Source: Phoronis australis (lineage: Eukaryota > Animalia > Phoronida). Taken from it: a stretch of DNA of 64,000 bases. Where the stretch lies: the NCBI GenBank assembly GCA_002633005.1, contig NMRA01000073.1, positions 458,150 through 522,149 on the forward strand. The letters are read 5' to 3'. How positions within the stretch are numbered: the stretch's first letter is position 1; each line of letters opens with the position of its first letter. Made by a program: the position numbers and the translations under genes. Shown here in pieces: positions 2,269-44,200 of this stretch. The notes under the pieces were generated by a model. That model saw only the letters and a program-made list of their open reading frames with translations, made no database searches and had not been told where the DNA came from.

Positions 2269-2434
2269 CTCGTGATCATGTGACTTGCGTCCAACCACCC
2301 TGAAGGTCTGGTTTACTGGGTGGTGGTATATCTGCACCCTGGACATGCCCTGCGTCGAGCCAGCGTTCACCCAGGTCTTGTGAGGCTCATCGTAAACCAT
2401 GACCGAGGCTCGCACAGACACGATTGAGTGCTCG
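2269..2434 (-). CDS. ena: Ena/VASP family (enabled/ENAH-like) exon encoding the N-terminal half of the EVH1 domain
   Basis: Acceptor ttctgtttcag|C and donor GAG|gtaagc; 166 nt (phase 2 in, phase 0 out). Encodes (S)EHSIVSVRASVMVYDEPHKTWVNAGSTQGMSRVQIYHHPVNQTFRVVGRKSHDHE, matching the Ena/VASP EVH1 motifs RASVMVYD, W, SRVQIYH and TFRVVGRK. No downstream exons were found, so they probably lie left of the window. Confidence 0.95.
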
Positions 2435-5400
2435 CTGAAACAGAAGTCGGAAGCGACGTTTTTACTTATGACACGCCAACGCGAAACATGCATAACAGTG
2501 AGGAAATCACGGAGAACCAGTCAGAACAGAAGTTAAGGAATTTTGTCCAAGTACGTCAAGCTCCATCCAGTTGTGGCAAGACTCAAGCAGGAAGCTTGAC
2601 AAAAAATAACGCAACATCATTTGAAAATCAGCCAAAATTTTTTCATCGACTTTCTGACAACGCCAGATTTCATCATTTTTCAAACAACTCTTGACTTTAA
2701 ATCCATTCCTTTGCACTGAATCAGAACATTGGGCGGACGTTTTTTACAATGATTTATATGGTTCATTAATATTTAAGCAATTCAACACCCAAACAGATTC
2801 TTGAAACAGATTGTGACAGCAACTGAAAGCCATGTTTAGGTCACACCAGTGTTACACTTAAGTTCTGTGGCTGATTATGTATGGCTATTTACTTTTCATC
2901 ATACAGTGAAACACATCATAGAGTACTGCTAATCGCTGTCATATCAGTACTTTGCAACAGTTACTTTCTCAAATAAGGAAATATTTTAACTCCATCAGGC
3001 ATACATTCAAAACCCTGTCATTACAGGAGGGCAATAAAACTTGGACACATTTCAGACACACACTCGCTCGTTCGAAATCCAGTCTTTAAGCATAACTATT
3101 CTTTTCCAAATGCTAAAATGGTACATAAGCAGCTATTGAAGAGTTAGTTTATGATAATGTTCTGTCACATTTGAAACTCTTAATTGGCCACAACATATTC
3201 AGGCATCACTGAAACAGTCCAACACTACATGTGGATAATCAAGAGGCAAAGGAAAATATCAGACAGACATGGTGAATATTTAACACAGTAGGCATGTAAC
3301 CACAGCCCTGAGAGAACTAGGAACTTGAGGGAGTGTTTGAGCAAATTACAAAATCAATTTCATGTTATGAGATTACATTCAGCCAGTTCTGCGTTTTGCC
3401 ATCCAGCCTGGAGTAGGCTATAACATATACTCAGTCAGGGTAAAACTGATTATCACTACGTAATTCCTTGGTTAATGCCATAAGCTAAGGTTGTGAAATA
3501 TCTTTGTACTTGCAATAAAACATTCAGAGCTCATGTACAGCGGTTACCTTCACAAACAAAGGACAGAAAATTTTAAAGCTTTAATCAAAAGGACTGCCTA
3601 GTCAACTGAATTATCAAAACCATATCTCCAGCGACGAGTCCTTACAAAACCAAACATCTACAAAACAACAGATTTTAATTTGGTAAAACGATAGGTTTTC
3701 TGTAAGTAGAAAGTCTGAAGAATTTGATTATTAACTTTTTACCAATCTGCCATTAATCGTGTCACTAATACTGTTACATTTTACCAAATCATTATCTTTT
3801 TTTAGTTTTATGCAACATTTGAATTTTTTTCATGAAAATCACAAGAGTCTTCAAGCAAAAGTGGAACATTTTAAAAACAATTCCCAACAGCTACATGGAT
3901 GTGCTGTCGTAAATGAGCATGGTGATATGGCCTAAGTAAGAATTATTGGAATTCTGTAATATTGACCGGTAGTCTCAATAGCTCCAGCATTAGAGGTTCC
4001 GGGTTCGTGCCCGGTTGGAACAGATAATTCTATGGTATCCAAAAGTTTTTTTGAATCTGGTCAGCCTGAGCTTAATGATGGGCTGAAGTCAAATCTGGAA
4101 TTATTCCAGGACCCTACATAATATTAAACCTGTGTTAAAAGCTGGTTTTGAGTCCATGGTTACAGGACGAGTCTTTTGATGAAGAATTCAACGTTGCCAG
4201 TATAACTCACGAATCAGAAATCAAAAAGTTGCATTCAACGCCATAAAATCCTGCTACAGATGCTAACACATACTCTAAATCAACAACGAACTTCGGTAAA
4301 ATCGCTTACACCAATTTCTGACAAAACGAATTGCCAAAATAGACATCTTTCACCTTTCAAAGGCTTCTAACATAGGTGTGAGTGCCACATTGTCTGAAAC
4401 CAGTTTCTGGCAATCAGAAAACTACACCTGATCAAACACTGGATTCCTAGACTCAGCACCTGTCCTAATCTATCAAAAATCTGCAAAAAATAAACATATA
4501 ACTTAAACAAAATATACACCTGACTTTTGTTTCCTTCACCATTCTCCTAGATATTCCTTATCACTGCAGATACCAGGAAGCTGAAGATCTACTGTCCAAC
4601 CAGCTAAAGGTGAAGCTATAAGTACTTTCCCATTGTCACAATAGTTTCAGTTTCCTCATTCTTAATATCCAGTCGGTCCATCACACATCACCCACTTCAC
4701 CAGTTTCTCAAGCGTTACACGATTATGTACCATAGGCACCACCAATAAAAAACTTTTAACTCTCCAATAACACCGCCACAGCCTCAATAAGACTAGGGCA
4801 AGGTACAGGGTCATCTACTGTGAGAATTACACAGCCAGCGGTAAATCCATAAAACATACACAAACACTGATGGACAGTGTGTCCTGGCTTCAACCGATGA
4901 CCTTTGATTAAATATTTCCGCTGACACACCAAATTGCTGAAAAGGTAATGCTTATTTCTGGTGAACAACAACCAGTTCCAAGTAAACGATACTTCAGCTT
5001 AAACCCGGTGCACTTGGGGTGAAGAGTACAGAGAAGGAAGAGAACCGGAGACTTTCCAAGACAATTTCAAGTGCCAACCACTATGCACTGCAGAATCCTC
5101 GCGGACACTTCACTCTACAGTGGCTACAAAACAGGACCAGACACACAAGTTAACAGCAGAAACCTTCAATCGAGCTCGATAAAACTGTAACCTGGGCCTC
5201 CAAAGTCTAATCCTTGTGCCTGAAATTTGGCTCGAAAATCGACCGATTGCACGACACCCTTAGGGTAAACATATAAGCGTGTACCCAAACCATGCAGCAT
5301 TATTGGTTGGTTAAGATTCGAGCCTGAACAAGATTCTAGAATTGAGTTCCAAGAGTAGAACCCAAGTCTTAATCAAGAGCCAGTCATTGCCAACTGCTGA

Positions 5401-5771
5401 TACACGGTCATGCAAGCCTGAGCTGAGCTCAGCTGTCAAAATGCATGTAGTTTACATCTAATGAGTAGTAAGCCAGGGAATATGCACATCTGTCTGTTCA
5501 GACAACACTGGTTGTCCACAGCCAATGCTGTGTTTATTGATTGGTCAGACTGACCAAGTGAACCACCCATTAGTTGCTGTACTAACTAAGGGCAGGTTAC
5601 TTATAGGACTTCATTGGGCACACAACTAAAGGGTCTTCAAAGGTTGTTTTGATAAATCATTGACAGGGATTCCTTGCTGAGCTGGCCAAGCATCAAGTCA
5701 AGAAATTATTGTTACAACACATAAATATGTAAAACTATATGCAAATGTTACATAAATATATATGTATTAAA

Positions 5772-6128
5772 GCTGCATCTCGCCCTGTTTAGCAGGCCAC
5801 AAATCCAATTAAGCCTTTTACTACTCGTAATGTTCCTTACCGTGGAAGTATTCAACTTAAGAGCCCAACTAAAGTCTCAGGCAATGCATACATGCACCAC
5901 TTAACTTTAGGATTGGCCAACCACAAATAAATTCTGAAGCGATGGTGGATGCGCACAAATAAATTCTGAAGCGATGGTGGATGCGCACATACCCATTATC
6001 TGACCTGGGAGTTGGTAACTGACATTGAACCCTGTCACAATAAGGAGCATTATGGGACCGAATTCAAGAGAGCAAAAGCCCCAATTCAATTTCCGCTTTT
6101 TAGTCAGCTAAACAGGGCAAAATGCAGC
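5772..6128. mobile_element. Degenerate TIR element with an internal 32-bp tandem duplication
   Basis: About 22-bp inverted termini GCTGCATCTCGCCCTGTTTAGC / GCTAAACAGGGCAAAATGCAGC; the left end follows TTAAA. Two exact 32-bp copies lie at 5922-5985. Confidence 0.5.
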
Positions 6129-9100
6129 AGTAATTTCCTACAGATCAAGTTCCCAATAGAAGGGTTGTGTGGTATATAACTGGTATATGTATATTATCAA
6201 GGATCGTTTTAGAAAAACGTGACTACAGGCGAATTGCCCCCCATGGCCTTAAGTCCACAAGCCAATCCGGAGGCTACGTTATTTTTTGTTCTTTTTGCTT
6301 TCGGGCCTGTTGGTCAAGTTAAGCCATAACAATGCGTTAACTAATTTAGTTTTGGGCCAATGACGTAGGGCAGTGCTCCTAAAATTATCCCTGATAAAAA
6401 GGAAGATCAAAATTATCACTTTCCTAATTCTCAAGTTCCTTCTATCAATGTCGAGGGTTTTCTTATTCTAATAAGGATGTGATTTTACAAGTCTGTGAAA
6501 TGCTCATATAATCATACAGAACAACAATTTTATTGCCAACACTACCACCAGGGATAAAAAGGTTTGAACACCTAAGATACTGACTAAATGGAAAACTTAT
6601 AAATCTTTTTCATGTTTTCTATATTTATAATAAAAAACAATGTACTATAACAATAGTTCAGCCCAGAAAATGTTAGAAGTCATTATGTCTGGGTGTAGTC
6701 TTTTTTTACACTGATTATGGAAATCTAAAAATTTCCATAATCAATGTGAAAGTAAAATTGGGTTAAGAGAAAAACTGTCTCCAGTGGGCAATCAACCCAT
6801 GGGAAAACAGAAAGAAATGGAGAAAATCTGATGGCAGGGTCTCGCTATTGCTACATACTAAAATATCAAGTGCTAAAGAGTCTCCCTATTGTCACCTCAT
6901 TACTCTTGTGAATACACCACCTCAGCATACAGTGTGTGAGTGCAGGGGAGTGAACAGGAAAAGCCAATGGGACAGAAAGGACATGTATTATAAGGGTTTT
7001 CTGAAAGCATTCCACAAAAGAAACTCTTTTTTAGGGTTGATATCACCCTACCAATTTTTTTTGGGGGGGGAGCCCACTCTTACCTATACCTTGGTAAGTA
7101 CGTTTACGCATTTTGAACATACACTACATAGCTATATTGCAATAGTTAGTAGCTGTCACCAAAAATTCTTGAGTTGATTAGGTTACTGTAGTCAATATAT
7201 TCATTACAATCCAGGTTGATATTCACAAGAAATTAAAAGTTACATAAAATATTTGTTAAGAACTGAACACTGACTTTCTTGTACAGATTTAGTTGCATTT
7301 GTAAGGCTAGTCAGTTTTTAAGACAAATCTCTGAAGAGTTTGGTATGTTGTCAGGAATTATTTTAAAAAATGTACCTATGGCTCAATTAGCCCACAGAGT
7401 CCAAAATATGTGGGTCAACTAGCAATAGCCACTTCCTGAGAACGAGTCCGATGCCCTGTTATTAAGTGGAAAAACTGGTTCTCAAAATGCTGGTACCCCT
7501 ATAAGTGATTATTATCACTCAATCTAGGTCATGTGAGTCATGTTAGTTTTTTCGTTGTGTGGAATTTCTAATTTAAAATTCTTTGGGCAGCATGTTCCAC
7601 GTGCGATATTGCATGCTATACCAGTACGTTGTGAGACAAGTGATTAGTCAGCATGATAACGAAACATGTAAATCTAGCAAGGATCTGTGCTCTCACAATA
7701 TCCAGACCATAAAAAGTACCGAGGGATCCAGGGGGCACATGCCCCCAATAATTTGCAGCGGCAACAAGGGTGCGAAATTGACAAAAGTGATGGCAAACAA
7801 GACTAGGACAATCTTTAAACTCATCTGATCCCAACCTTCAATATATTTTAACTTCCTGTACACTAGACAGTAGCCTTGGTACAAAGCTGCATACTAAATA
7901 TACAGCTTTGCACCCACGTAGGTAAAAGAGTGGTTAAGATAAAACCTGACATAAAATTAGGGTCATTAATAACTACAGTCTTCCTTGAGTAAACTAAATT
8001 ATTTTAAGGTGATGGAAAAAATGGCGTTCTACCTTTATTCTGCTGCTTAAGTTGTGGAGCGATCTTTAGCGACGACTTTCTTCGCCATGAAATATTGCGT
8101 CACCTATTGGCCAGTTTCTTTTTTCGTCGATTCTTCGATCAACTATTGTTCTTTCACGAGGTTTTGTACACGTCACAACAAATTATCGGAACTGGTTTCA
8201 CTTCATTATAAGTTTTTAGAATTTTGATACTGAAGAACCGAATTTTAGAAGAAATTTTGCAGCTTCCACGCTATCATCATCTCCAGAGAGATGTCACAAA
8301 AATTTAGGAAATGGCGCGTGTGCGTGACACGAGCGTACTGTTTTAGAAACGATGACATACTTTTCATTGTTAGAAAAGGCTGAGAGTTACGCAAGAAAAT
8401 GACGTTTATTGCATTTATATTCACTTAAACGGCTGTAACGGGCAAGGTGAGAGTCAGTTGATTCTCAGATTTTGCATGCACCCCGTCCAGTCTTTAGCTT
8501 TACATGTTGATACAAGTTTCACGGCGAGGTTTCGAGCAGAACTACCTTTGCTGTGTGCAATTTCGGAGTCTACAGAAGAAATACACACAGTGATACCTAG
8601 CTGTGTTTTGACGATAGTCTTCACACAGCTAGCTACCTGGCTTACCTGGCTAGCTAGACCCCTATGTCTCTGAAATTGGGTTTGTTGTTCGATCAACTTT
8701 ATCAGCAGCCGTTGTGGAAGAATTTGAAAGCAATGTGTGATATTTCTGTAGCCAGAGAATAAACGATTAATGACAGAATTTTGATGCCGAAGTTATCACA
8801 ATAGGCTAATGAAATATTTATGCGAAAATGCTACAGCACCTCTCCTAACATTATCATGGTTCAGTAGATAAAACACTCTTCAGAGACAAAGTCTTGACCA
8901 ATATAACAAACAGAAAGTGTGTAATGCAGTGGTTTTCAGTAGAATATTATTTATGATCAGGGCACCTAGGAGCAGCAATTCAGTATGGTATGACCGGTTT
9001 TTGGCTGGCAGTTGTTTACATTTGATGTGTGATGTAACTGGCAAACCACATTCACCTTTAAGTGCATACTAATTGAATGTCTGGGCAGCACACACATGAC

Positions 9101-12100
9101 ACACAATCCAGATGAATATTCAATCTCGCCAGCCTGCTTAATCAATACATCTAGGAGTAGGGATATCGAGGGTGAACATACTGTCACAGAGAGATGTTCA
9201 ACTGAGTCATGAGCCATTGGTCATGACTCAACTACCTTTGATATGCCATGTGTATGGTAGCTTTCTCACAACACAAAGATGTCTTAGATTATTTAGAGGT
9301 TATGTACAAATTTGTTTATGCAGGAACAGCTCCTCTATAGTTTGAGTGAGGCATTTTCTACTAAGAAATTTTCAGAATGGCAAAGAACAAAGAGCTCTGC
9401 ACTGATCAGCTTATATTAAAATTCAAACATTTAATTCAGCCATTGTGGCTGTGTTTCAAACTGTGTCATGCCAAAAGATAAGCAGGAATGATAAAAACAA
9501 TTTTAAAACATCACAGACGAGCATTGGACAGGATCAAATGTTCAAATATGTGACTTATCATTCCGAAACCAAAAAAGACACATCAACGATCATGGACATG
9601 TAAAATGAAATTCAAAATGCTACAACCGCAGTAAACAACAGATACGATGATTGTATTTTGCACGACATAACTTTGAACAGTTTTAATTAAACGAACGTGA
9701 TGTGATGTACAAAACAATGACCTGAGGTATGTTATCAGTACGTCCTGGTATTTTCAAGGAAGTAATGAATGTTTGGGTCATGTTCTGAAGCATGATATGC
9801 TTAACAGTCAATCTTTTAGCACCATCAAAACAGCTGAAACCAACAGGTTTTGCCAAAATTACTCCCCGCTACCGGAGTATTACTGGGGTCCACCTATTTA
9901 AGTGCATATGATCCAAATACGTACATGAGATCTGACTGAGGATAGATTTAGAGTTAATGACTTTTCCAACACCCTTAATTCAGTGGAAATCATCTGCTTG
10001 TGTTATATTAACATTCCCAGACATTTGTGATGGGTTCAGCCACTTCGCTTCACAGACAAAATGTCATCCCTATCAAACAAATATGAAGAAAGGGGAAGGG
10101 TATAAAAGCAACTCATCAACCCCCCTCCCCAAGACAAAACTTGTTAAATGTACAATATGTGGACATAATTTACTCAGTGTTAACATACCACTAAGTGAGA
10201 CAACCTTCGCAAAAATTTGTTCACTATCTCATTAATGTTACCAAAGCTATTCAGGTTGGCGTACGGCTAAAGCTGAACATTCACAACTGTTCAAAACAGT
10301 TTCAGGTAGACCTTAATAAATGTTTGATACCAAACAAATGTGCTACGATGACAATGTTAACTCATGATACCAGGTAAGCGCCGTACACTCCAGCAAGGCA
10401 TCATAAAAGGACTCCTCGAGTCTACACTGAAATCTCATCAAGACTCAGGCTGTCATTAAACAATTCACTTGAAACATGATGCTACTCAGTCCCCAAGTTC
10501 AACCACTTAAAATACTCAGCAGTTTGCCAGTTGTTTTCCTTTTAGAAAAACCTCAAGTAATCAGAGAGGGGAGGCAAGCACGTCTCATTGCCTGAACCCT
10601 CAATACTAGTCACCCCTCACATAACTACCACAGCTTGTACAATATACTAACTTCCTTATCACTTCAGCACAGGCCTTCTCCATGTAGTCTTTAATCAACA
10701 TTGAAGATAATTCAATCATGCCAACTTCACACTGACTCTGGGATAATTACACCAGCACATGTGGCACAACACATCTAACACCCTCCACAACTATCCACCA
10801 ATACACAGGATTAATATTTCAAAGGACCAGAAACATTGTAATCAACATCATTACCTCTCAGGGCTGGTAGACTCTCCTTCCATGTTAGATGGTTGACTAG
10901 GTTGTGTGACTAATGCCTACAGTAATCCCCTGGTGTCCCAGACAGGGAAGTTCCTATTCATAGGATTAGGGCATAAATATCATGCAATGGGCTTGCCCAT
11001 CACACAGTGTTAACCAGTCCAAATCTTGGGTATGCTGTCCTCAGACAAGGTGAACGCAATACTATACCTATATTGGACCAGAGTTTTAGAAACACACTGA
11101 CTGAATGAGTCGGCCTGTCTACAGTTTCTCATAAATATAATGAACAGCAGATCCTCTGACAATAGGACAGTGGCAATTCTATTGGCCCAGGTGTATTCAG
11201 TTGCATGGAATAACATTCCATTTAAATGTGAAACAGAGCAAAGTTAGTACCCAGTGGTTTGGGAGTCTAGCTGAATACTAATACGCACAGGGGACTGTAG
11301 AATTGGATTTCTTTTCTCCAGAAGTCAAGTAAATCTGCATAATTTATACAATTAGCGGACCACAGGAACAAGAATGTTGTATAATGTAACATAGTAATGA
11401 AATTTTTAGCAGATTTTTCTAGAATAAGCCATCACAAATTAAAGATGATAAGCACACGCCTTTGGAGATATTTGATATCAAAATAAATTTTTTAATCAAG
11501 CCACTACTCGTTAAGGACCGGTATTTCAATAGCGGATACAGCACAGACATGCACACATCGTATAAAAACAACACATGTTTACTTATATCAGAATTTTAAT
11601 CCAAAACTTTGGCACCAAAGTCCCAATTACATTGAAATGAGTCAATCACATAAAAAATACATAAATTTGAGTGGTAGGGTGAACAGAGAACTTGTCTGAG
11701 TTGTAGGGCACAATTTGAGATGATCCGAGAGCTGGATGAAAACGTGTATCAAGTGCGAGATGATAATACAAGCTTTGTAACACCAAAAAAAAAAAACGAT
11801 AAAAGTCTGGCTTGGCAAAACATCAGTTAGTCTGTAACCATTACATTGACACAGGTCAAAGGAGATAAATTTTTAATCAAGAGTTAATTAATATTAGCTG
11901 GGTAAACCCGTGCATTGGATGGATTGATGGATATTGACGCCAACCAATGTAGATGTCAAAGTTGTCATCACGAAATAGTCACTGAAGAGACAGATCAACT
12001 AGAGCAACTATTAGCAAACAACTACAACTTCTACTATTAGAAGGCAGGGAAATGGGCACAAAACTAAGGAGATTCCAAACAACTGAACATACATACATAC

Positions 12101-13305
12101 ATACTATGAGGTACCCCAGAGCAATTTGCACAGAGCACATTGGCCCTAACTAGGCAAGTGTCTACCACACTACACACCCTACACTTTGTCACAAATGTGG
12201 CACATCTGTCAGTATGTAAATGAGCAAGCAAGTAACTTGTAATCATTTCCACCCTATTTGCAGGTTTACATCCACACTGCAACTTGCACAGGGGTGTTTT
12301 TCTAGCTGATACAACACACTATAACTACAGTAAAATCTCACCAATTTTGGACAAAAAATAATAGCCAAAATTGCACTTTCTTCATTTTTCAAGGACTTCT
12401 GACATTGGTGTGAATGATCACAATTTTTCAAAATATTGTCAGTTGGTAGCTATGATAGAGATTTTGAGTAAGTACCATTTTGACACATATACACATTTTC
12501 ATATATTATTCTTGAAAAAACAAGAACCTAAAATTTCATTTGTCCGTCATATTGTTTCCTGTATTTATTGGATTTTGGCGTACAAGTACGGTAGTGGTGG
12601 AGAAATTTCACTATAGGATTGACTTGCGCCTGCAAAAACTCAGAAGCAGTGAACAGATCACAGTGCTCACTATAGCAACAAATCACTCAACTCTCAGATA
12701 GGGTGATAAACTAACCAGAGGTAAAAAGCATCACCGAGAGTGAGCAGGCGAGATGTGCATCTTTCAACTGCTTTGGTTTGAGGAATCATTCTAGGACAAA
12801 CAGCAGAACCTTAGCAGAGCCCCAATCAAAAAATCAAATACCACTAGTACAGGAATTTGTTTTTCAAATTTAGAACATTGTATGGCGAAATAGTGAAACA
12901 CCAAGTTTTCAATAAAAGTAAATAGGAAAAATACTTTTCTTCCAAAATCATTTCCAGAGTTTATATTGTACAACTGCCATCAACCAATTATGACGGTCAA
13001 TCATTTTTAACAAATCAATACAGTTTGGTTTGAAAGTTGAAAAAATGACGACTTTGGCAATTATTTTTGATTGAATTTTTGAATTTCAAGAAAATTTACT
13101 GTTATTTCACCAATAGTATAAATGAATACAAGTCGTTGCAATACCACTGTGGTTGAGTTACCCAAACTGGTAGCATTTTCCCTAGCACTTAAATAACATG
13201 AATCCTTACTTCAAAGGACCCATATGACAGAGGATGGAGGTCTGTTTATTGTTGCATTAATCAATTTATTGCAGGGAGTGAACACCATATCAAGCTTCAC
13301 TTTAA

Positions 13306-13695
13306 AGGGAAAGCAACGTTTTTGATGTTAGCTAAAATATAAAAACCCCATTATGTTGGAAATACAGTTTTCGTTTTAATTGCTGTATCTGTGTTGAGTA
13401 CGTATTTTCCATGAAGCAACAGTAGGTGATACAAACGGACCAATAAAGGGCCAGATCTTGGTTAAGAATTCGCTTCAGTTTAGAAAACATGGTGTCCTGC
13501 TCCATATTGAATAGTCTGTGCAGGTCATTCGTTTTTGCTCAGTGGAAATGAATGCAGAACCGAGATGCAGGCTCTTTGTCTAGCCTCATACATCACATTC
13601 TACATTGTTCAATAGACACTACATACCCACCAGGGATTTCAATCGGGGGCCCTGTATTTCTAATACACTAACATCAAAAACAGTTGTCTTCCCCT
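13306..13695. mobile_element. Kolobok-like non-autonomous element
   Basis: TTAA|AGGGAAAGCAACGTTTTTGATGTTAG ... CTAACATCAAAAACAGTTGTCTTCCCCT|CTAA: imperfect TIRs with AG..CT termini and a degenerate TTAA target site. Confidence 0.55.
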
Positions 13696-15192
13696 CTAAA
13701 AGCGATTGGGGTGGTGAAGAAACGAGAAACAAGCACAAACTGTTGGGGAAACCAGTCTAAAACTAGGCTCATTGACAAAATGCTAGCTAGGTTTTGCACT
13801 CATGTGAACCTAGTGTTAAGTTGAACCCCCACTAGGCCACACAGCATGACTTGACAGTCTCCAGTCAGCTCCAGCATGTAGCATATAGTATTGCATTTCC
13901 AGTCTGTATAGCACATTTCACATGGNATCTGGGGTGTGTGTGGGCGGTCACGTCTATCTACCCAGTGCTGATAATGTAAATTTGTAAATTAAGACACAGC
14001 TAAAACAAATGACAAGAGACAACATTTGCATGTAAGTTCTTATTGAATGTGTATTGATAATTTTCTGTAAATAGCGCAGCCCAAAAGTGCAATAATCCAT
14101 CCTATATAACAAAAATTGTTTCCAACTTCACAAAAGTTCAGATTTCTGGAATTAATGCCAACAAAAAGTGGTGTCTCCGGAAAAGGGTCCCTTTCCAACT
14201 CCATTCTCTAATAAGGAGATGGAAAAGCAGTACATTTTGACAGAAAAAAATGACATACACGGGTGTCACTCTTGCTGAATATGAGATGAGAAAGAAGGGC
14301 GATTGATCTTGGGTAGTGCACCCACAACATGTGTGAAAACAAATGTAACGCCATGGAAACAAAGAGGTGAATCACTGAACTAGTACAAACCCAACAACGG
14401 ATGAGCTGACCCAGCTCTACAGTTCCACTCCAAATATTAGGGGCAGGAAAATCCAAGATGCTACCCTATTATTTGAAGAAAAGGGAATTTCAAAACATCA
14501 GAATACAACAAATTTCTCAGTACCCAACCTAATGCTAATAGCAAAACATAAAACAAAAGATAGGGTCACTTGCTTCATTCCAAACAAGAATTGGCCATAA
14601 AATGTTAGTGTTGAAACCAAATTGACATTACAAATTATCAAAAAATACAAATTAGCTTAAACCAACTTTAAAAGTTTTAGTAAAGAACGTCACACGGACC
14701 CTTGAAGACAGAACCAATCGTAATACAGCACAACATTTTAATGAGATTGTGTCAAAACTGAAACAACAAATAAACACACATGGTAAAATCTTTCAAATTT
14801 CCGACAAAAACAATCTCCTAAATTAACCTTTTTATTTTTCAAAGTCTTCTAATTTTGTCTTGAATGACTGGTAATGTACAGCAGCATGACGACGTCAACT
14901 TATTTACAAACAGATCATCAGTTTTCTTTGCAGAACCTTGCATGCAGTGCTCTCCATATCTGAAAACTCACGCGTCTGGGAACATACAGAAGTGTCGCAA
15001 ATGCTGGGTAACAGGTCTTGGCGAGATATTAAAGCAGATCGTGGAGAACACTGAACGTACATTTCAAGGAATATTCTGATGCAATATAACCTTCACGGAT
15101 CGGGCAAGAAGCCTAACAACCACCGGATAATTAAGCTAAGAAAACTGGGCAGGCAGCGTCAAGAACAGAGACAGCCAGTGTTAGACTCTTAC

Positions 15193-15233
15193 CTGGCATT
15201 GTCACAGTATGAACACTTACAGCGATAATGCAT
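15193..15233 (-). CDS. ena: Candidate alternative first coding exon of Ena (MHYRCKCSYCDNA-S)
   Basis: ATG CAT TAT CGC TGT AAG TGT TCA TAC TGT GAC AAT GCC AG|gtaaga. Phase 2 with a strong donor and an in-frame stop upstream. Shares the CxCSYCxxx motif with 16348-16505. Confidence 0.55.
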
Positions 15234-16347
15234 ATTTCCCTTCTAAATGCTACAGTGCCCTTAATAACCAGGTGACAAATATCCAGCGGCTTCACACACA
15301 GAGGAGACTCCTGCTAGAACTACTTTGCTAGTGGGAAGACTCCCAGGAATCATGCTGCTTACCAGTATACAGAGAACAACTATGGCCCCAGTAACCCAGG
15401 ATCATATAAACAGTAGTGGAAAGAACAGAATCACTTGGACTCCAGTGACAAATACTCAGACAGATATCTGAGGACAGATAGACCACAATGCCTATCAAAT
15501 GTCTACTTATAATTAACACCAGAAAAACAAAAGAAGGTTGTAAATAACATCTTGTTCAGGACAATGAACAATATGTTAGTTGGCCCTGAGACAGTTATCT
15601 GAAAGTGTGCTGGCTGCCATTATTTCATAAATAAAAACACAGCTGCTGAATTTCATGAATAACAATCAAGTGACATGACAGATAACAAAGTGAATAAAAA
15701 TTGTTTAGATCTAGTGGCATTCTTCCAACAAGGGGTCTATTTGTTGTGCTGATTTTGTGAAGTTTGACAAAAAAGAGCATGTCAAAAATTAAATTTACCA
15801 AAGAAAGATTTAGCTAAAAAGTGATCAATAGTTGCCCACAAAAATGATACAGACACAAAAACGTAAAATTGTCAAAAGGAGAGCAGATGGCAGCCGGATC
15901 CATCCAAAAATCCACTTGTTAGGTATAACGTCATTTTGACAAACAGAGGAGTTAGTCGAATACTTGTCAGATACATGTTTGTCAACTTCATGGAGCTGGG
16001 TAGATAATGAGGCAGACAGAAAGAAATACACTTGCCAGAAGGGGGACCAGCAGTAGTTGAATATATCCCATAATCCGTGAATTCACACCTCTCCTAAATA
16101 GGGAGCATTTACCAGATTTAACGATGAACTTTCGAGGGGTGTGGTGAGGCAGACATTAAAACACTAAAATTGCCACTAGGAGGTGCAGACAAGGGTCTAG
16201 GGAGACATAGATGCAGATGAGACACTTGCACGGATGCAATCATCATACATTAAAGGTGGCTCAACCACCAATATAATGTTCAATTTTGGTCAATTCACAC
16301 AGAGAATGTCAGGAGAATTGAACAAAAATTAATGAAATTTATTTCAC

Positions 16348-16505
16348 CTATCAGAAGAACAGTAGGAGCACGAGCAGCCTTTTGAAGACAGCGACGACGA
16401 AGACCCAGAATGGGCTAAAGAGGGCGCTGAAGAGCTGAGCAACCTGCTCCTAGGCAGCGACAGGGTAGTGAGCTGTTTGCTGCGACTGTGGCTGGAGCGA
16501 GACAT
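16348..16505 (-). CDS. ena: Candidate alternative first coding exon of Ena (52 aa, Ser-rich, ending CSCSYCSSD-S)
   Basis: Reads MSRSSHSRSKQLTTLSLPRSRLLSSSAPSLAHSGSSSSLSSKGCSCSYCSSD then AG|gtgaaa. 158 nt = 52 codons + 2 (phase 2). GC-richer than the flanking DNA. Confidence 0.6.
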
Positions 16506-19500
16506 GCTATCAATACGCAAAACTAATGTCTTTTATTTTAGGATATAGCACAAGATGTCTGTTCTTTATACTAGTATCTTCTCAGTTGAATATCATGGCA
16601 CATGGCTTCTTGTACTGATATTTTGATTGTTCGGGCGATTAATTCACAACTTTAACTTGCAACAGATTTGAAGAATCAGGCTTGATTCACGACGCGCTTT
16701 CAAAGCTTATGAAACAATTCGTGTACAGCAGCGGACACCACCTTCTGAAAGTTCACGATATTACACAAGATCTCATCTTTTTGCACAATAAATCCAGATA
16801 ACTTCCATGACAATGTTCCCAAGCAAATTTCAAAGCTTTCACAGATGAAAGTGCTCAATCAAATGCAAGTATAGTTTCACAGAACAGCTCCAATTATGCC
16901 ATCTATCCTGCGTCTTGGCTGGCTCATTTCAACTAGTAACCTCCAACCAGAATGCTTTTATTCAGCAAGTGCAATTCCCTGTAGATCGAATGCATGAACG
17001 GCCACCAACATCGCATTCAGCTGCACCGCCTGTTACAGCAGAGTCCCTTCCTCAGTCAAGTTAACCAATCATTCCCAACGACATATTCAAATGAGCCCTA
17101 ACATTGCCTACACTCCCAGTGGGGTCTCCAATCAGAGCTGGTTCAACTCCCCAGGTGGGCAGTCCTGCTGGGTAACTTGCCAAGGTGGTTTTACAGATCA
17201 CAGCTGGAAATCCTAGCTTGAGAAAAACAACTGCAGTTGAGGCATGCTGGTACCAGCAAATACAGCAAAGAGCTCATCTGTCACAGCAAACAATTGAATT
17301 AAGTTGCCAACTGCAAACATATTGCAAATGTACTGCTAACGAATTGCTCATCAATTTTGTCATAAACACGCCACAAAACGATTCACATGAGAATAACCAT
17401 TTAACAAAGCTCCTTTGAAATCCGAAGTAATAAAGGTGTCTAACAAATTCAGCGTGAAGCTGCGCTTGGGGATTATTCATGGTAAAAAGTTGGTAACAGA
17501 TTCGCTGATAATGATTTGAAGTCTACACAGATGAAAAACAATAAGGGTGATTATACCATGCAAAAATCAATAGAGAAAACAATTATACACAGAAACAAAA
17601 AACGATGAATAAAAAGTAAATGTTAACCCATCATAATACAACCCCTAGATGTCACTGAAGTGCTGTCCACTCTATGAGTACTGTGCCAACGAACAAGTTA
17701 CTAGTGGAATGAGTTATCACCAGATGAAGTGGTGTGTAATTTAGTAATGTAGGTGCTATTTGCAATGAAGCAATTTATGTGACAACTTATCCCACCTTAT
17801 CGAGGTACGACAACTTCTACTAGGTTATCTTGCCCAAGTCCCAGGGTGAACGCAGACCTTTGACAGCTAAATACATACAGGGGTCTAAACCTATTTTCTC
17901 CATATTTAAAATTGTGATTCGCAGAAGACATGTGCAGTCTGGGAATATGGACGCTTTTGAAGATACATCTGCAGAAGGGCCCTAATCAAATGCGATGCTT
18001 ACGAATCTTTTGTATGTAGCCCAACCTGTGCTAAGGGAATGTTCCATGAAGTACTGGCAACTGCAGGAGCTGATCCAGGATAAGAGGGGGTCCTAACAAA
18101 AAAACAGGGCAGTTGGGACAGATAGAGGAGGTACTCCTCCATTAAACAGCAATACTAAAGTGGCAGAGCAGGGTGTGAGTCCCATCCTCTTCGACCCCCT
18201 GTGGCAACAAGCCATTCGTTTTCATTTTAACTTTGGTTCCCTATATACTATAAATGCTCCTTTTCATTAAGATAGTCATAAGCGTCCCAGCGTGAAGTAC
18301 ACATACCTCTACCTGTAGTCAGGAGGCAGTAGAGGTCTCCCATCCCAGCTGATCAGAGACCCGTGCTTTATGAAAGACTTCCATTAAGTTTTTGACAAAA
18401 AAATGTACTCCTTTCTGTAATGCTATTCATTCATCAGATACTTGTGGCGATTAAACAGCATTCAAGAAACAGACAAGTTCATGAGTTCACGCAGGTTTCT
18501 CCCATAATCCAAACATTTCAGCCTTGCTCACCATTCAACTTTAGTGAAGGCCAATTTGCTGAATGTGTACTAATAAGGCTACAAGCTTACATGTAAAATT
18601 CTAGCCTTTTAGCAACTTCATCTTACACAATCTTCCAGGATCTCTTGTTAACCTAGAATGAAACTAGCTGGCAAACAGAACAGGGCAAACAGAACATGTC
18701 TTTAGTTGTTATGAACCACAAGCGACATTTCAATATTGCACACTCAACTCAGGGATATTGGTGAGGCTTTTGAACTATTTCAGTGACTGTTTCAACAGTT
18801 TACTATAAATCTCATTTACATCCTCTCCTTGGTAACTCAGGCTTAATTCTGACAACATCCCATGCACTCTGTGGTGTGAAAGACTAGAAAGCTCATCTTC
18901 AAAATGCCAGTCATTGAAAGTGAAATAACACAACTTCCCTGATAAAATTAGAACACGCTAATTGGAATACTGGAACCAATTACACTGAAGTACTACTTAT
19001 GTTACTGCAAAAACTAAATTATGACTGTTTACAAATGTTTACATTAAAATAACTTGCTACTTTGACACAACTTATATTTACCAATCAGCAGCTGTGGCAA
19101 CATCTCAAGGTAAAAAATCAACACTACTTTTATAATTGAAATTATCCTATTTAGTAAACGCACAATAGACAACTTGTCATTTCACACCCTTGTCACTAAA
19201 TAATGTATGGAGTAACAAGTGAAATTGCATTTTGTTAAATTTCTTCACAAAAAAGATTAAGAAAATTTTAGTTTATCACTAGCATTTTAGTGTATAGATG
19301 TATAAAACAATATTTGGTGAAGTTTCCACCTTAGAAAATGGAAAACGGCAATTTTGGCAAATACTTTTGTGCAAAATAATTGTAGAATAACAGCAGTTGC
19401 CATGCTTATTGGAATTCCTATGAGAAGAATGTTATGGTATGCGTAGTATGACATCTACCAAGGCTGCATTCCATGGAGCTACTTTGCTGCCAGAAAAGTA

Positions 19501-22500
19501 AGACCGCACAAGATCACGCAAAATCACGCGACAGGTCGAGTAAGCTGAGGACCAACATGACTGCCACTGATTGGTCAGCGAGGCTGGAACGACGAATTAT
19601 TGGAGTAAGTTGTACGAAAATACGATATTTCCTTCCATCAGCGAAATTTCTCACTACAACTGGCAAGCCAGTGTCTTACATCTATGGAGACAGCCCCAGT
19701 ATGTAACAAATCTACTAGAAATGAATTTCATCCCAAAGCTGTTGTTTCATTTATAATACGAATGCTATGAGACAAAAAACTGGCACAATAGATAACCATA
19801 GAAACTCAGAAGAATGGTGGCTTAGAAGCACTAATGTCATACCTGGCAGGAACATAAGTCTGCATCAAGAAGTATTACTTCCAAACACCAACACAGTGTA
19901 ACCAAAGAATAACAAGGAAATAACAAAGTGTTAACTTGCCTTATTTCAAGATGATTCTTTGAGAGATCCGCAAAATTATATGAAAAAATTCCAAACTCGA
20001 GATTGGGAGAAATGGGGTTGTCACAAGGTAATAGTCACACTAATAAACGGCAATCAATATTACTTAAACTTCGTCAGCCAAATGTCAACTTCTTCAAGAA
20101 ACAATGGCAAATTTAAACTTTACAACTGAAGTAAACATCGTGACTACAAAAAGCAAAGTTCACAGCTATAGACCATGTAACAAAAAGTTCCGCATAATTT
20201 CACTATCAAACTTGCAACTTACGCAGAAGCAGTGGAGTCTTGGGGAAAATTCTCTCCATTTACAGCAGTCATGGTCGGACCATAAGACTTCAGTTCAATT
20301 AACATGTTGAAGAAGTCTTTAGTCTGGCGGCAGCTATACTCCAATCCTAGGCTTGGTCCACACTCAACTAGACCAATTAACACATAGCTGCGAGTTTATG
20401 AATGGCCAAACGAAGGTTCAAACGAAATAACAAACGTTTGAACTTCTGGCGAGGTGAATCCGCAGGAGTTAAAGATCAGGATGAACGTGGGTGGGACTGT
20501 TCACCTATTCCTTTACCTGATGATGATTATGGGGTATTCGTAAAATCTTGAATATGCCTATCACGGCCATATGTTATAGTGACTAAGACAGGAAAAATTC
20601 TGTGAGGTAAAAAACCATAATGAAGTAACCTAACACACCGTTACTCTGTGTAGTATTTGTTAGTCTACATATCAATCAAACATCAGGAGATGATAGACAG
20701 TTAAGACAAAAACACACACCTTCAAAGAGGCTGTAACTCCACCCCCTCCCACCCTCCAACATAAATTTTTGAAATTAAATCACTTACCTATACGAAGTTG
20801 GTCGCCTATTTTTCCTTAACCAAATTAGTGGGCATTTCAAGTCTTTTTGTGAATGAAAAGTTCTTTATTGCTGAGACTAAACTCTGCAAGTAAACTTGAC
20901 ACTATAGGTAATTTTATGCCTTAAGCATGCTCTCAAGGAATAACAAAGTGCAGGTCTTGGAATGACCAATGACAAAGAAGAGGAAAATTTTCCCGATGAT
21001 GTATCGTTAAATAAATAGGCTTGGGTTATTTAAATATTTTTGTGGTGTAAAATTTAGCTGAAATAAATGTTTTTACACGAATAAAGTTAAAATGATGATA
21101 AAAAGAGATGAAAAAAGAGTAAACTGGAAATCAAATAAGAAGAAATTGAAACCAAAAAAGAGGAAAACCCTCTTAATTCCACCCCCCTGAAACTACCATT
21201 TCTTTAGAAGTTCAGATATCTCTTAAATCAGTATTTAGCATTAAGTGGTCTACAAGTTGGTTGTTTGACATAATGGGAGTTTAGTATAATCAAACCTCAC
21301 TGCTTGAAACAAAGAAAACACAAAGTGTGAGAAAAAGGGAGACAAAAGAACCAAACCAACTTTTATAAATCATTACTGGGTATTGTGTTAATTTATCTTA
21401 AAGATGTCTACTACTTCAATTAGTTAGCTTTAATGGATCAAACTGACAGTCTGTGGACAGATCTTTTCATTAGCTTTTCCATCAGCTCTTGCACTACAAT
21501 CCTGACACCTTGAGGCAAAATCTGATACTACAGCACAAGGAAAATGGATACTGCAAAAAGATTACTGCTGAAAGGTAAAATTTTATACCACAACTGCTGT
21601 GTTCTCCCTAAATGTAATCAAAGATGGTGATGTTTGAAATTTTTTGTACCATGTTTGGAAATCTTTGTTTTAAAGGTCCTAAGCCATGTTTAAAATGCCC
21701 CAGTCATGTTTAAAATGCCCCTAGCCATGGTTAAATCTGAAGCCATGTAAGAAAAGTATTTTTTTCTACTTCACAAGAGAAATAATTGAAATAATATTGC
21801 ATAGTGGTATTTACTTCTATTATTTTGTAGTGAAAATGACAGTGACAAGCTCAGTGAGTGAAAATGGTTGTTTCTGTGCATTAACAGAAAAGAAATTAAG
21901 GCACAAAACGATGCAGAATTTGAACGACATTTGAATTTTGCTTACGGAGAACCCTGAACTGAATATTGATATTGGAAATAATTTCAACAAAAACAAACAG
22001 GAAATGGATTCATATACTGATAAATTTAACCTTTAAATAAAATACTTAAATTATCGACAAGATGGGAAGCAAACACTGAAAACCATCATCTGCCATCAAT
22101 CAGCCTAGATGTATTTCAACTGCCCCCAAGAATGTGCCAGTTAAGTCTTCCTATCTATAATGACTTCTATTGTAATGTTGATGAGCACTGTCCAGGTGCA
22201 ATGAGGCACGAAACCTTATAGGTGACACCTAAATCACAACAGGTACAGCTTAATTAAAATCAACAAAACAATCTAAATCCAAAATCATGCCTCCTAACAA
22301 CTCAAGTGGAAATAAGTTGACTGCATACTTGTCTGGGTTTATGCCCATGCTATTTAAACTGGTAAGATTAAAAATCAGGAGATTGGTGTCCAGGCAAGCA
22401 TGGGCATCTAAAAACGTTTATTTCTTAAAAAACAGAGCGGGCCTTTCCCCCAATGTTGCATTCCGTCAAGCCAATGTCAATTTTTGCTCTTGAGTACCAT

Positions 22501-23690: not shown

Positions 23691-23746
23691 CTCTGGTTAC
23701 AACAAGTACTTTTGCAGGAAGGTATCACCATGGAAGAACTGGTCAT
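23691..23746 (-). CDS. ena: Candidate alternative first coding exon of Ena (MTSSSMVIPSCKSTCCNQ-S)
   Basis: ATG...TGC AAA AGT ACT TGT TGT AAC CAG AG|gtattt; 56 nt, phase 2. Has a Cys cluster just before the donor like the two exons above, but the donor is weaker. Confidence 0.35.
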
Positions 23747-37772: not shown

Positions 37773-38266
37773 CTGACTTTGGCTGTGTCCTTGATTTTCT
37801 TTTGCATCTCTGAAGTACCTATTGGCCATTCATTTGAGACAGGCGTTGTTACAATTGATGTGGAAAAACATGTTTCTTTATGGTGGAATGTCTGACTACG
37901 TGTCGGGCTGTTGGAGGATGCTGGTAGCCTATTGGGACTATGCGTCCGTGGGACAGTACCACAAGAGTAGCCAGGCTTCGTTTTAGGTTCCTTATCCGAC
38001 TGTGTGCACGCATACTTTCGTGACAGAGGATCACTGCGAGGATTCTTGGTGGAGGAACTGAATTCCGTAGTCAAGCTCGTATCACCGTGAAGACTTGCAG
38101 AAGTCTGTGCATGTGGCCAGTCTATGGCAGTCTCTTTGCTGGCGCCACGCTGAGAACTAGTGTCAAATGCCTTCTTGTACTGACCGACTGCAGTCAAGGC
38201 ATCAGAGGCGACATTCTGGACAGACTTTTTGCCGTTGTGGATGGCATACTTTCCAGAGCGGTTCAT
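37773..38266 (-). CDS. ena: Candidate alternative first coding exon of Ena (164-aa Ser/Thr/Pro/Lys-rich extension)
   Basis: Longest N-free ORF in the window (MNRSGKYAIHNG...KKIKDTAKV). An AG|gtattg donor in phase 2 lies 10 codons before the ORF stop; 494 nt = 164 codons + 2. GC-richer than the flanking DNA. Confidence 0.6.
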
Positions 38267-41200: not shown

Positions 41201-44200
41201 CACCCAGGGAGAGCAGCTTATTGTTGAAACTAAAATACCAGTGACCAAAACAATAATGTTAGCAATATGAAGTCTAACATATGATGACAATACGGATCCA
41301 ACAGTGGATTTCTGTTTTTGGCTAGAATTGGAATACTTGCATAAGATGTACAGATAATAGACTAAATCGCACCAGGGTGAAAACAAGGCCTCCAAAAATG
41401 ACTCAAACATGACCCGTAGGTCCCCAAAACTGGCAGAGGCTCTATAGTCATTTTTTTTCTAAAGTTACCCCTGGACGGTATAAATTGGTGGTGGGGATTA
41501 GGTCAAAAACGGAAATTTAAAAGTGAAAAATTGGACAGTTTGCAAGACAATGTTTTAGTTCCAACATCAACGTTAATTTATAAATATACAGTAGTTCAGA
41601 GGAATTATAACTAGTTAAAAACCTGAGCCACATTGGCATTTGACAATTAGATGAATAATTTTTGCAAACATATTATGGCATTAGCGTCACATCCCCACTG
41701 TTGAGCAATGCTTCATGACAGTTGACAACCAAATTTATCCAACCAATACAATTATACACAGCCTCTCTGTCATACACCAGTCAACTGCAGCTCTTCCCAA
41801 ACCCCAAGTCTCATTAATTATAAACATAGAATTGCAATAGTTGTTTTCTTGTAATCAAAATATCAGGGCACGATTTAGAATGTTCAAAGAGAACGGAGAA
41901 CAAACAGGATTGAGACCGGATGCAGTAGGCATCCGCTCTCAACATACTGCAAAACAGCTAGAGTTCCAAACCAACCATGCAACTCACCCGGTCTGTTTCA
42001 AAGCCTCCATAGCCTTACCAGCCATCCTCATCCTCGGACAAGGGTCGAAAACATCGAAAGAAATGGCGCTGCCCGAGTAAACACTGTTTTCACTCCTCCA
42101 CCAGGTGAGGCCAATAATTACTCAAGATTAATTACTACACAGGTGCTTACAATCAAATGCATTAACATCCACTTCCAACGTGTCCAAATGTTTCGAATAT
42201 ACATGAAAACTTGTACAAGCTCGGTTATCAAACATCCGGAAAGTCGTGTTACGTAAATGAAAAGCCTTTCACCTCCACTTTAGAAAAGCCAATTTTGCAA
42301 ACTGACTTTTGCTGAATCCAATCTATAGATCGTGCTATGTCTGTGAATTCCGACAAATGTCAGTTAGCAGGAAGACTCGTGTCAAGACAGTTTAACTGTA
42401 ACTGGATCAGTTGACTCATATCTTTGGTTGACTGGAACCGTTAGCCGCTGTAAGGTGAATGAAAGCTTGTATGATGTAGTACACCGATGGAATCCACCAA
42501 TTCAATAATCATTCAGACTGTGAGACTAAATGAAGCAGGTTTTGTCTAATGAAGATGGGAAGTGTGGGCTGGTGTTTACAAGTGGGGGATTCCACAGCAG
42601 GTCAGTTGGCAAATAAAAACTTAACTTTCAGCCATTAGATGGCACACCATCAAAGGATATTTTCACAGCAATTAAAATTCCATTGGGTCAACACCGGCAA
42701 AGCAATAGTACAAACCAAGAAGGTATATGACTGAAAAGCGTCCGGGGCAAAATCATCTTGCACTCGGTGAAAATGCAGACTGACTGCAGCTAGAATGTGA
42801 CCAACTTAAAGAAATTCCAGGGCAGCTTTCGACCAAGACAGAAATTCAAAAAGACACGTCTCCAAACATAAGACTCCAAGTATCCACTTCAAAAGACAGC
42901 AACAAACCACAGTTAACATCAATCTTATCCTTTTTCCACAAAGCACATTAATGTCCAATACACATCGTTTCAACCATACCATACCAGGTTGGTTATTAAA
43001 GATTTATGCAATGTGATCTAGGACACTTTTGAAGTTCAGTCGCAATCTGTCACAAATTCTTTACTTGTATGTAGTTTAATGGCTACTGTATTAACAAAAA
43101 ACATCCATGATCATCGATAATTAGCATGAATTGTTGTTACAAATCAAAATGATTACAATCACCATTCGTTGCCCACAAAATACAAATGATTTATTTGTCA
43201 ATGAAGTTCACATTCATTCCACTTACCCCTGCCTAAGTTGTCCATTTTATGTTTGCTCAGTATGAGAACTATAAAGTCATATTCTTAACCAACAGGCACA
43301 CACAAAAATCAACGGAATGAAAATCAAAGATCAAAGTTTACTCTTTTATATAATAAAACCAATGAAAATCAGAAAAATTAACAGTAGTGCTTTTAAGGAT
43401 TAAGAAAAACGTATATGATGGTTTCACCTTCGATCCAATATTGTTACAGGCTAGATTATGTTATATTTTAGCAGATGGGCGTTAACACATTATCCTGTAG
43501 TACAATGTTACTGTGTCCACGAAACACATCAATCAAGCTTGCAGGGTATCACAGAAGATAAATTGATCTAGGTGAAAATATAGAAGGAAGTTTTGACTTC
43601 TGGGCAGATAATGCCAGCAAAAGTCTTCATGGCATCCAAACAGACTTCAAAAGAACAGGACCTATTTTTTTAAATGTGTGTCTATGTTAGGTGTTCAACT
43701 GTGATTGGAGTGCATCGTAATTCCGGAGTCAACTCTTTTCCTTTACAGAGGTAAAAAATCGCATTGTATGATTAACCTAGTTTTCAAAAGGGACGGCTAA
43801 CATCCTTCTGAGCCAAGAAGGACAAATAGAGACTGGTCTATCACACCTCACTCTGCTTTTCAAACTTTTATGTCTGCATTGCAGCTCACTAATGTAGCAG
43901 TAAAACTTTATTGTCACAATGACAAATGGCAAAGTAATTTTAATGTGAAATAGTGGACAAGTACAGCTGCAGTAAACAACTAGGGGGCAAGTGTCTTACC
44001 AATACACGTGCAGCATTGTGGATAAATAACACAGGTGCTGCTGTAATCCTGTAAACCAGTCTTGGGAACTGACTTACACACTATGTCGACATATGCATCT
44101 CGCACCTCAACCGGTAAATGAAAGAATTAAAAACAGGTAGAGATATCATTTTGGCAGAAATGCTCGAGTGCTGAAAGACTTTTGTTCTGCAAGCTGTATG

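What the first reader, a model, noticed from the sequence alone, without database searches (positions are those of the whole stretch)
15193..16505. Two neighbouring candidate first exons share an identically spaced C-x-C-S-Y-C-x3 motif abutting EVH1
Seen: RCKCSYCDNA|S and GCSCSYCSSD|S place the motif at exactly the same distance from the donor. The codons differ at synonymous positions (TGT/TGC, TGT/TGC, TCA/TCC) and the rest of the two exons is unrelated, which points to protein-level constraint rather than a DNA repeat. A third candidate (SCKSTCCNQ|S, 23691-23746) is a looser version. Inference: this is either an S-palmitoylation cluster that anchors these Ena isoforms to membranes, or a splice-assembled C3H metal site using the His of the constant exon (C-x-C-x2-C-x3-S-E-H). 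I know of no description of this motif for Ena/VASP, but I have not searched.
Basis: partly seen in the sequence, partly recalled or inferred. Interest (0 to 1): 0.75.

Follow-up and report, generated by a model that had tools for sequence, protein, structure and literature searches.

The report
Cysteine-tipped first exons of Ena
An invertebrate gene for the actin-filament builder Ena/VASP holds two neighbouring stretches that end in the same three-cysteine motif at the same distance from a splice site; they are likely rare alternative first exons, whose cysteines would most likely carry fatty acids and pin those protein forms to membranes.

Summary
On the minus strand, two candidate first exons (A 15193-15233, B 16348-16505) end in C-x-C-S-Y-C-x3 before a phase-2 donor that fits the EVH1 exon at 2434. 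Among 1,079 candidate-donor pairs this pair scores 35, the next 18; 0 of 500 simulations reach it. Flanks are unrelated and 3 of 5 synonymous sites differ. Reads show a different, cysteine-free first exon (20223) joined to 2434 (17 reads). No joint or loose end of 3+ reads was listed for A or B. B lies in a stranded RNA block with a sharp 5' edge, and depth arithmetic fits clipped reads at its donor; A has one unspliced read pair only. The motif is in 0 of 469 fetched EVH1 proteins, none closely related; other cysteine-cluster leaders occur in spider, tick, amphioxus and insects. Best reading: minor S-acylated Ena isoforms (0.45), as in GRIP1b or PSD-95alpha. Rival: a zinc site (0.22). The His is lineage-wide, so it does not favour the metal site. 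Nothing biochemical was tested.

The parts
2269..2434 (-). Constant exon coding the first half of the EVH1 (WH1) domain; phase-2 acceptor at 2434
   Evidence: Translation; Pfam WH1 E 6e-8; Mena EVH1 1evh E 4e-17; junction reads end at 2434
15193..15233 (-). Candidate first exon A, coding part: 13 codons, Cys at residues 5, 7, 10, His at 2; donor CAG|GTAAGA (8 of 9 to consensus)
   Evidence: Sequence. RNA: none in X1, X2; one read pair in X3 that crosses the donor unspliced (302 bases = 2 x 151). Use as an exon is inferred
16348..16505 (-). Candidate first exon B, coding part: 52 codons, Ser-rich, Cys at residues 44, 46, 49; donor TAG|GTGAAA (5 of 9)
   Evidence: Sequence; G+C 54-59% against 31% just past the donor; depth arithmetic fits two clipped X2 reads ending at 16347-16360, most layouts at 16348; partner exon not shown
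16506..17200 (-). Likely 5' untranslated part and start region of exon B (12 upstream ATGs)
   Evidence: Stranded coverage in X1-X3 up to the 17101-17200 bin and none in 17201-17900; G+C-rich at 17000-17250; ATG count
20223..20305 (-). Alternative first exon shown spliced to 2434; coding part of 27 codons without cysteine; donor TGC|GTAAGT
   Evidence: Joint 2434-20223, CT..AC, 2 + 2 + 13 reads in X1-X3; frame
23691..23746 (-).
   Evidence: Sequence; score 4 against A and B; outside both read lays

Best explanation
A and B are likely minor, separately started first exons of an Ena/VASP gene, probably descended from one duplicated exon end, which would place three cysteines just in front of the EVH1 domain; these cysteines would most likely be S-acylated and tether those isoforms to a membrane. 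Shown: the motif, its spacing and frame, the EVH1 exon, one other first exon spliced to it, and stranded RNA over B. Indirect: splicing at B's donor. Inferred: use of A, common descent, translation, acylation by a zDHHC enzyme, and the effect, namely that promoter choice gives an Ena tetramer a lipid anchor so that it depends less on FPPPP-bearing partners for its place while the EVH1 pocket stays free.
For: Likeness beyond chance and at protein level; 0 comparable candidates (best score 14) among 130 candidate donors upstream of EVH1 exons in 65 of 80 loci of other animals. The gene uses alternative phase-2 first exons, as Ena genes widely do (Lineus, Schistocerca, Branchiostoma, tick). B: stranded block with sharp 5' edge, G+C step at the donor, 22 Ser codons drawn from all six Ser codons, clipped-read arithmetic. 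Other Ena genes have annotated leaders with cysteine clusters near the N-terminus: MFCC in a spider and a tick, MACCCC in amphioxus, CC or CSCC in two insects; 7 of 107 leaders against 3.2 expected, 43 of 2000 shuffles. Precedent for acylation set by N-terminal exon choice: PSD-95alpha (Cys3, Cys5), PSD-93alpha/beta, GRIP1b, GRIP2b (PMC6365469 passages), Cav-beta2a (PMC3972191 passages); for an actin regulator, LIMK1 Cys7/8.
Against: No listed junction for A or B; A's only read pair is unspliced. The motif was in 0 of 469 fetched EVH1 proteins; no relative closer than about 70% in the EVH1 part was found, so conservation is untested. The leader enrichment is weak: spider and tick are not independent, one of the seven may be an intron read-through, and the leaders are database gene models. 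B's cysteines are at residues 44-49, not at the N-terminus, in a Ser/acidic setting; B's donor is weak and 12 ATGs lie upstream. C-x-C-x2-C is also a known zinc motif, and SAP102's N-terminal cysteines bind zinc and are not palmitoylated.
Confidence: 0.45

Rival explanations
1. The three cysteines bind zinc, with the His of the constant exon (or His2 in A, or a water or partner protein) as fourth ligand, folding the leader against the EVH1 edge; zinc could also compete with acylation.
For: Exact C-x-C-x2-C spacing kept twice at a fixed distance from the domain. In SV40 small t a CxCxxC cluster plus a His binds zinc (PMC1945078 passages); separase has a conserved CxCxxC with a nearby His, proposed as a metal site (PMC5921967 passages). 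SAP102's Cys/His N-terminus binds zinc, and zinc impairs PSD-95 palmitoylation (PMC10620527 passages). The His aligns with Gln4 at the very start of Mena EVH1, next to the leader.
Against: The His is a lineage-wide residue: 19 of 20 His-bearing full-looking proteins have cysteine-free leaders. Fixed spacing follows equally from duplication of an exon end. In the cited sites the His comes from upstream or another helix, not five residues after the last Cys. No model of leader plus EVH1 was made.
Confidence: 0.22
2. The exons are real, but the cysteines serve something else (a redox or disulfide switch, or a docking motif built around the Tyr), or are kept only loosely after duplication.
For: Ser-Tyr is kept along with the cysteines, which acylation does not obviously need. 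Ena leaders are very diverse (166 distinct), so many may have no lipid or metal role.
Against: Three Cys kept in place while third codon positions and all flanks diverged points to selection on the thiols. Free clustered thiols in the cytosol are commonly acylated or metal-bound (established knowledge, recalled).
Confidence: 0.18
3. One or both stretches are not working exons: intron sequence or decayed copies, with the RNA over B being nascent or prematurely ended transcript.
For: No listed junction; A is crossed unspliced; intronic reads exist nearby (16131-16281 in X2 and about 15643-15793 in X3, my reading); B's site also resembles an acceptor (pyrimidine run then TAG) and is followed by AATAAA.
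Against: 0 of 500 simulations reach the pair score; both frames are open from an ATG with A at -3 and in the one phase that fits 2434; coverage over B has a sharp 5' edge and, by bin arithmetic, stops at or above 16342 in X2 and X3.
Confidence: 0.15

Closest known systems
Ena/VASP family (Drosophila Ena; Mena/ENAH, VASP, EVL; PDB 1evh)
   Same: EVH1 first half; intron at the same phase-2 position before E-x-S; several alternative short first exons, as in annotated invertebrate genes.
   Different: A C-x-C-S-Y-C-x3 leader was in 0 of 469 fetched EVH1 proteins. The reviews and splice survey checked deal with internal exons; a 2023 Ena/VASP review has 0 hits for palmitoyl, acylat and zinc.
Palmitoylated N-terminal splice isoforms: PSD-95alpha/SAP97alpha, PSD-93alpha/beta, GRIP1b, GRIP2b, Cav-beta2a
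   Same: Exon choice adds or omits a short cysteine-bearing N-terminus on a constant protein.
   Different: Here two exons carry the same motif, fixed relative to the domain rather than to the N-terminus; B's cysteines are internal; the host is an actin polymerase; acylation is not shown.
CxCxxC zinc sites (SV40 small t; proposed in separase) and the zinc-binding N-terminus of SAP102
   Same: Same cysteine spacing, a His nearby.
   Different: Those His ligands lie upstream or on another helix; here a site would be completed across a splice junction, and no metal binding is shown.
SPRED proteins
   Same: EVH1 domain plus a cysteine-rich part that is S-acylated (recalled; SPRED papers seen only as search listings).
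   Different: SPRED's cysteine-rich domain is C-terminal, large and constant.

Membership tests
Ena/VASP | N-terminal EVH1 domain of Ena type | tested here: met
   Pfam WH1; best solved matches Mena, VASP, EVL; best homologues are Ena/VASP proteins, 37 of 54 identical
Ena/VASP | Proline-rich region and EVH2 with tetramer coil | not testable with these tools
   The rest of the gene lies beyond the window's left end; no genome is held
Palmitoylated N-terminal splice isoforms (PSD-95alpha, GRIP1b type) | Cysteine-bearing N-terminal exon spliced to the constant exon | tested here: inconclusive
   No listed junction for A or B; indirect support for B; none for A
Palmitoylated N-terminal splice isoforms (PSD-95alpha, GRIP1b type) | Cysteines within about the first 20 residues | tested here: inconclusive
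   Met for A (residues 5, 7, 10), not met for B (44, 46, 49)
Palmitoylated N-terminal splice isoforms (PSD-95alpha, GRIP1b type) | Hydroxylamine-sensitive acylation and Cys-dependent membrane binding | not testable with these tools
   Needs bench work
CxCxxC + His zinc site (SV40 small t type) | C-x-C-x2-C spacing | tested here: met
   Both exons
CxCxxC + His zinc site (SV40 small t type) | Fourth ligand tied to the motif | tested here: inconclusive
   His present, but also in 19 of 20 His-bearing proteins with cysteine-free leaders; geometry not modelled
CxCxxC + His zinc site (SV40 small t type) | Stoichiometric zinc binding | not testable with these tools
   Needs bench work

The most novel reading that the evidence does not exclude
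Splicing builds a zinc site across the exon junction (three Cys from the chosen first exon, His from the EVH1 exon) whose thiols can alternatively be acylated, giving Ena a promoter-chosen zinc/lipid switch; and cysteine leaders in chelicerates, amphioxus and insects mark an overlooked, repeatedly evolved class of self-anchoring Ena/VASP isoforms.
Probability: 0.15. Interest if true: 0.75.

Novelty: new variant of a known kind. Interest (0 to 1): 0.42.

Why it matters
Ena/VASP proteins are thought to find their place through EVH1 binding to proline-rich partners (stated in PMC2898656). A natural lipid-anchored isoform would be a second targeting route, set by promoter choice, and would mirror what experimenters do artificially with membrane tethers (PMC4543927 passages). 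The spider/tick MFCC leader and the amphioxus MACCCC leader make the general idea testable in named species. As it stands the finding concerns apparently rare isoforms in one unidentified animal, and exon-chosen acylation is a known device, so the present interest is moderate.

Tried and rejected
No genome is held for the window, so repeats elsewhere and the 3' part of the gene could not be checked. No RNA holder was listed for 14800-17000; runs came by species label. First donor scan used phase 1 by mistake and was redone in phase 2. Two read lays listed no junction for A or B; one search left 7 joints unshown; 23691 lay outside both. Partial reads at 15619-15670 and 16157-16188 are short matches from other transcripts and were set aside. 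Homologue searches found nothing closer than about 70% in the EVH1 part; only the best 120-150 of up to 2,218 hits are shown per search. The motif-weighted profile (A4, scaffolded on P0231, itself probably an intron read-through) was dominated by vertebrate ENAH and gave the motif little weight, so its blank is weak; three earlier alignments misplaced the peptides. Cysteine runs directly before EVH1 in short database ORFs (P0002, P0215, P0231) were rejected as acceptor-side intron read-through; so was the one regex match in L029. ESM Atlas and Pfam gave nothing for exon B. 80 of 136 metagenome loci were kept, 65 scanned upstream, most with under 3 kb. A recent DNA repeat as cause was rejected. 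No fold or complex job was run. Literature: 8 searches showed no listing on acylated or metal-binding Ena/VASP leaders; EVL-1 binds zDHHC17 through an internal exon (PMC5655499 passages), which is a different feature. Supplements (palmitoylome tables) were not searched and may bear on this.

Full report
Setting. The window is animal DNA (37.8% G+C) and holds the 5' part of a minus-strand Ena/VASP gene. The exon at 2269-2434 codes the first half of an EVH1 domain: Pfam WH1, Mena EVH1 1evh at E 4e-17. Its best relatives share 37 of 54 residues and are annelid and gastropod proteins, with nemerteans next, so the animal is likely a lophotrochozoan; an earlier, unchecked AI note on this genome suggested a mollusc. 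The next EVH1 exon was not found in 1-2268 and no genome is held.

The observation. Exon A (coding 15193-15233) and exon B (16348-16505) both end in C-x-C-S-Y-C, three codons, and AG|GT. Both are phase 2, so the first base of the 2434 exon completes a Ser, followed by Glu-His. Three of the five shared residues use different third bases, the last 35 bases match at 20 positions, and 800-base surroundings align no better than chance (81 of 100 control pairs score as high). The post hoc pattern occurs twice on the minus strand against 0.01 expected. A fairer test compared the last ten codons of all 47 candidate phase-2 donors with an upstream Met: A/B scored 35, the next of 1,079 pairs 18, and none of 500 simulated regions reached 35. 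The plus-strand control scored 51 through an identical pair, a reminder that the null ignores repeats; A and B, however, are not a DNA repeat. In 147 kb upstream of EVH1 exons in 65 of 80 loci from other animals, the best of 130 candidate donors scored 14.

RNA. Three raw-read runs with the same species label were laid, about 18-19% of each. They show one first exon joined to 2434: 20223, CT..AC, 2 + 2 + 13 reads. Its 27-codon leader has no cysteine. By my arithmetic's bins the EVH1 exon has a depth of about 30-60, so most transcripts probably start beyond 21000. No joint for A or B was among the 15 shown (7 unshown), and the close lay listed no loose end of three or more reads at either donor. 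A has no reads in X1 or X2 and 302 bases in X3, which is one pair crossing the donor unspliced. B is different: all three runs have reads of the same orientation as the EVH1 exon from the 17101-17200 bin downward, and none in 17201-17900. G+C is 50-54% at that edge, 54-59% in the coding part and 31% just past the donor. Comparing the bins of both lays puts the X2 and X3 coverage of the 16301-16400 bin at or above 16342. The counts of partly laid reads leave about two clipped genuine reads in X2 and one in X3 (my reading). If the two X2 reads share a left edge, it lies at 16347-16360, with most layouts at 16348, the donor itself. This rests on assumed read lengths and does not show what the clipped ends join. 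So B is probably a real minor first exon, and A is unproven in these samples.

Relatives. Four searches and three cluster look-ups gave 515 proteins; 469 had a recognisable EVH1 start, and none had C-x-C-x2-C-x3 abutting it or C-x-C-x-[YF]-C in the 30 residues before it. No close relative was among them and each search shows only its best 120-150 hits, so this is no test of conservation within the lineage. Two general points emerged. First, several short phase-2 first exons are normal for invertebrate Ena genes (Lineus, Schistocerca, Branchiostoma, Argopecten, tick), so the architecture is ordinary. Second, cysteine-cluster leaders recur: MFCC followed by a shared VLTT in a spider and a tick, MACCCC in amphioxus, CC in a cockroach, CSCC in a leafhopper, CSC in lobster. 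After dropping vertebrate ENAH and proteins lacking the second EVH1 exon, 7 of 107 leaders have CC or CxC against 3.2 expected (43 of 2000 shuffles). That is weak: the leaders are gene models, two are related and one may be intron read-through.

Mechanism. Two precedents fit. Choice of an N-terminal exon sets palmitoylation in PSD-95alpha, SAP97alpha, PSD-93, GRIP1b and GRIP2b (PMC6365469, passages) and Cav-beta2a (PMC3972191, passages). CxCxxC with a His binds zinc in SV40 small t (PMC1945078, passages), is proposed to in separase (PMC5921967, passages), and SAP102's Cys/His N-terminus binds zinc and is not palmitoylated (PMC10620527, passages). I favour acylation (0.45) because other Ena cysteine leaders vary in spacing and sit at the N-terminus, which suits lipid better than a fixed metal site, because duplication of an exon end explains the equal spacing, and because the His is found in 20 of 386 full-looking proteins, 19 with cysteine-free leaders. 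Zinc stays a serious rival (0.22): the spacing is exact, B's cysteines are internal, and the His sits at the very start of the domain. Other thiol roles (0.18) and non-working exons (0.15) make up the rest. The consequence, an Ena tetramer held at a membrane with its EVH1 pocket free, is inference.

Known or new. The gene meets the EVH1 test for Ena/VASP; EVH2 is outside the window. Eight literature searches (listings and abstract starts only) showed nothing on acylated or metal-binding Ena/VASP leaders. A 2023 review has no hit for palmitoyl, acylat or zinc (PMC10340426, term counts and passages); a mouse Enah splice survey has no hit for first exon, promoter or cysteine (PMC2898656); EVL-1 binds zDHHC17 through an internal exon (PMC5655499, passages); membrane tethers appear as experimental tools (PMC4543927, passages). 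The library lacks most subscription papers and supplements were not searched.

Verdict. A real, non-random twin motif in a likely array of alternative first exons; splicing is indirectly supported for B, unsupported so far for A; function untested. New variant of a known kind; interest 0.42, and about 0.75 if the splice-built zinc/lipid switch proved true (probability about 0.15).

Noticed in passing
window 20223-20305 (-): A first exon not named in the finding is the only one shown spliced to 2434; its share differs between runs (2, 2 and 13 junction reads).
   Followed up: yes
window 37773-38266 (-): A 164-codon Ser/Thr-rich open frame from an ATG ending at a phase-2 CAG|GTATTG donor; a candidate long first exon, no Pfam match, no RNA test.
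   Followed up: partly
window 10855-10883 and about 41988-42030 (-): Further short ATG-to-phase-2-donor candidates; untested.
   Followed up: no
P0237/P0448 (spider Oedothorax) and P0481 (tick Haemaphysalis, XP_077536529.1): Ena leaders that both begin MFCC and share VLTT: possibly one conserved chelicerate acylation leader.
   Followed up: partly
P0426 (Branchiostoma, XP_078673930.1), P0511 (Periplaneta, XP_069677527.1), P0056 (Macrosteles): Other annotated Ena leaders with N-terminal cysteine clusters.
   Followed up: partly
P0327, P0340, P0348 and others (mammalian ENAH models): A leader recurring across mammals that starts Met-Gly and has one conserved Cys about six residues before EVH1; could be a lipidation signal, not examined.
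   Followed up: no
window 53486-54215: Two long frames on opposite strands with nearly the same translation, which points to a long inverted repeat.
   Followed up: no
window 16338-16343 (-): AATAAA lies four bases into the intron after exon B's donor; could end unspliced transcripts early.
   Followed up: no
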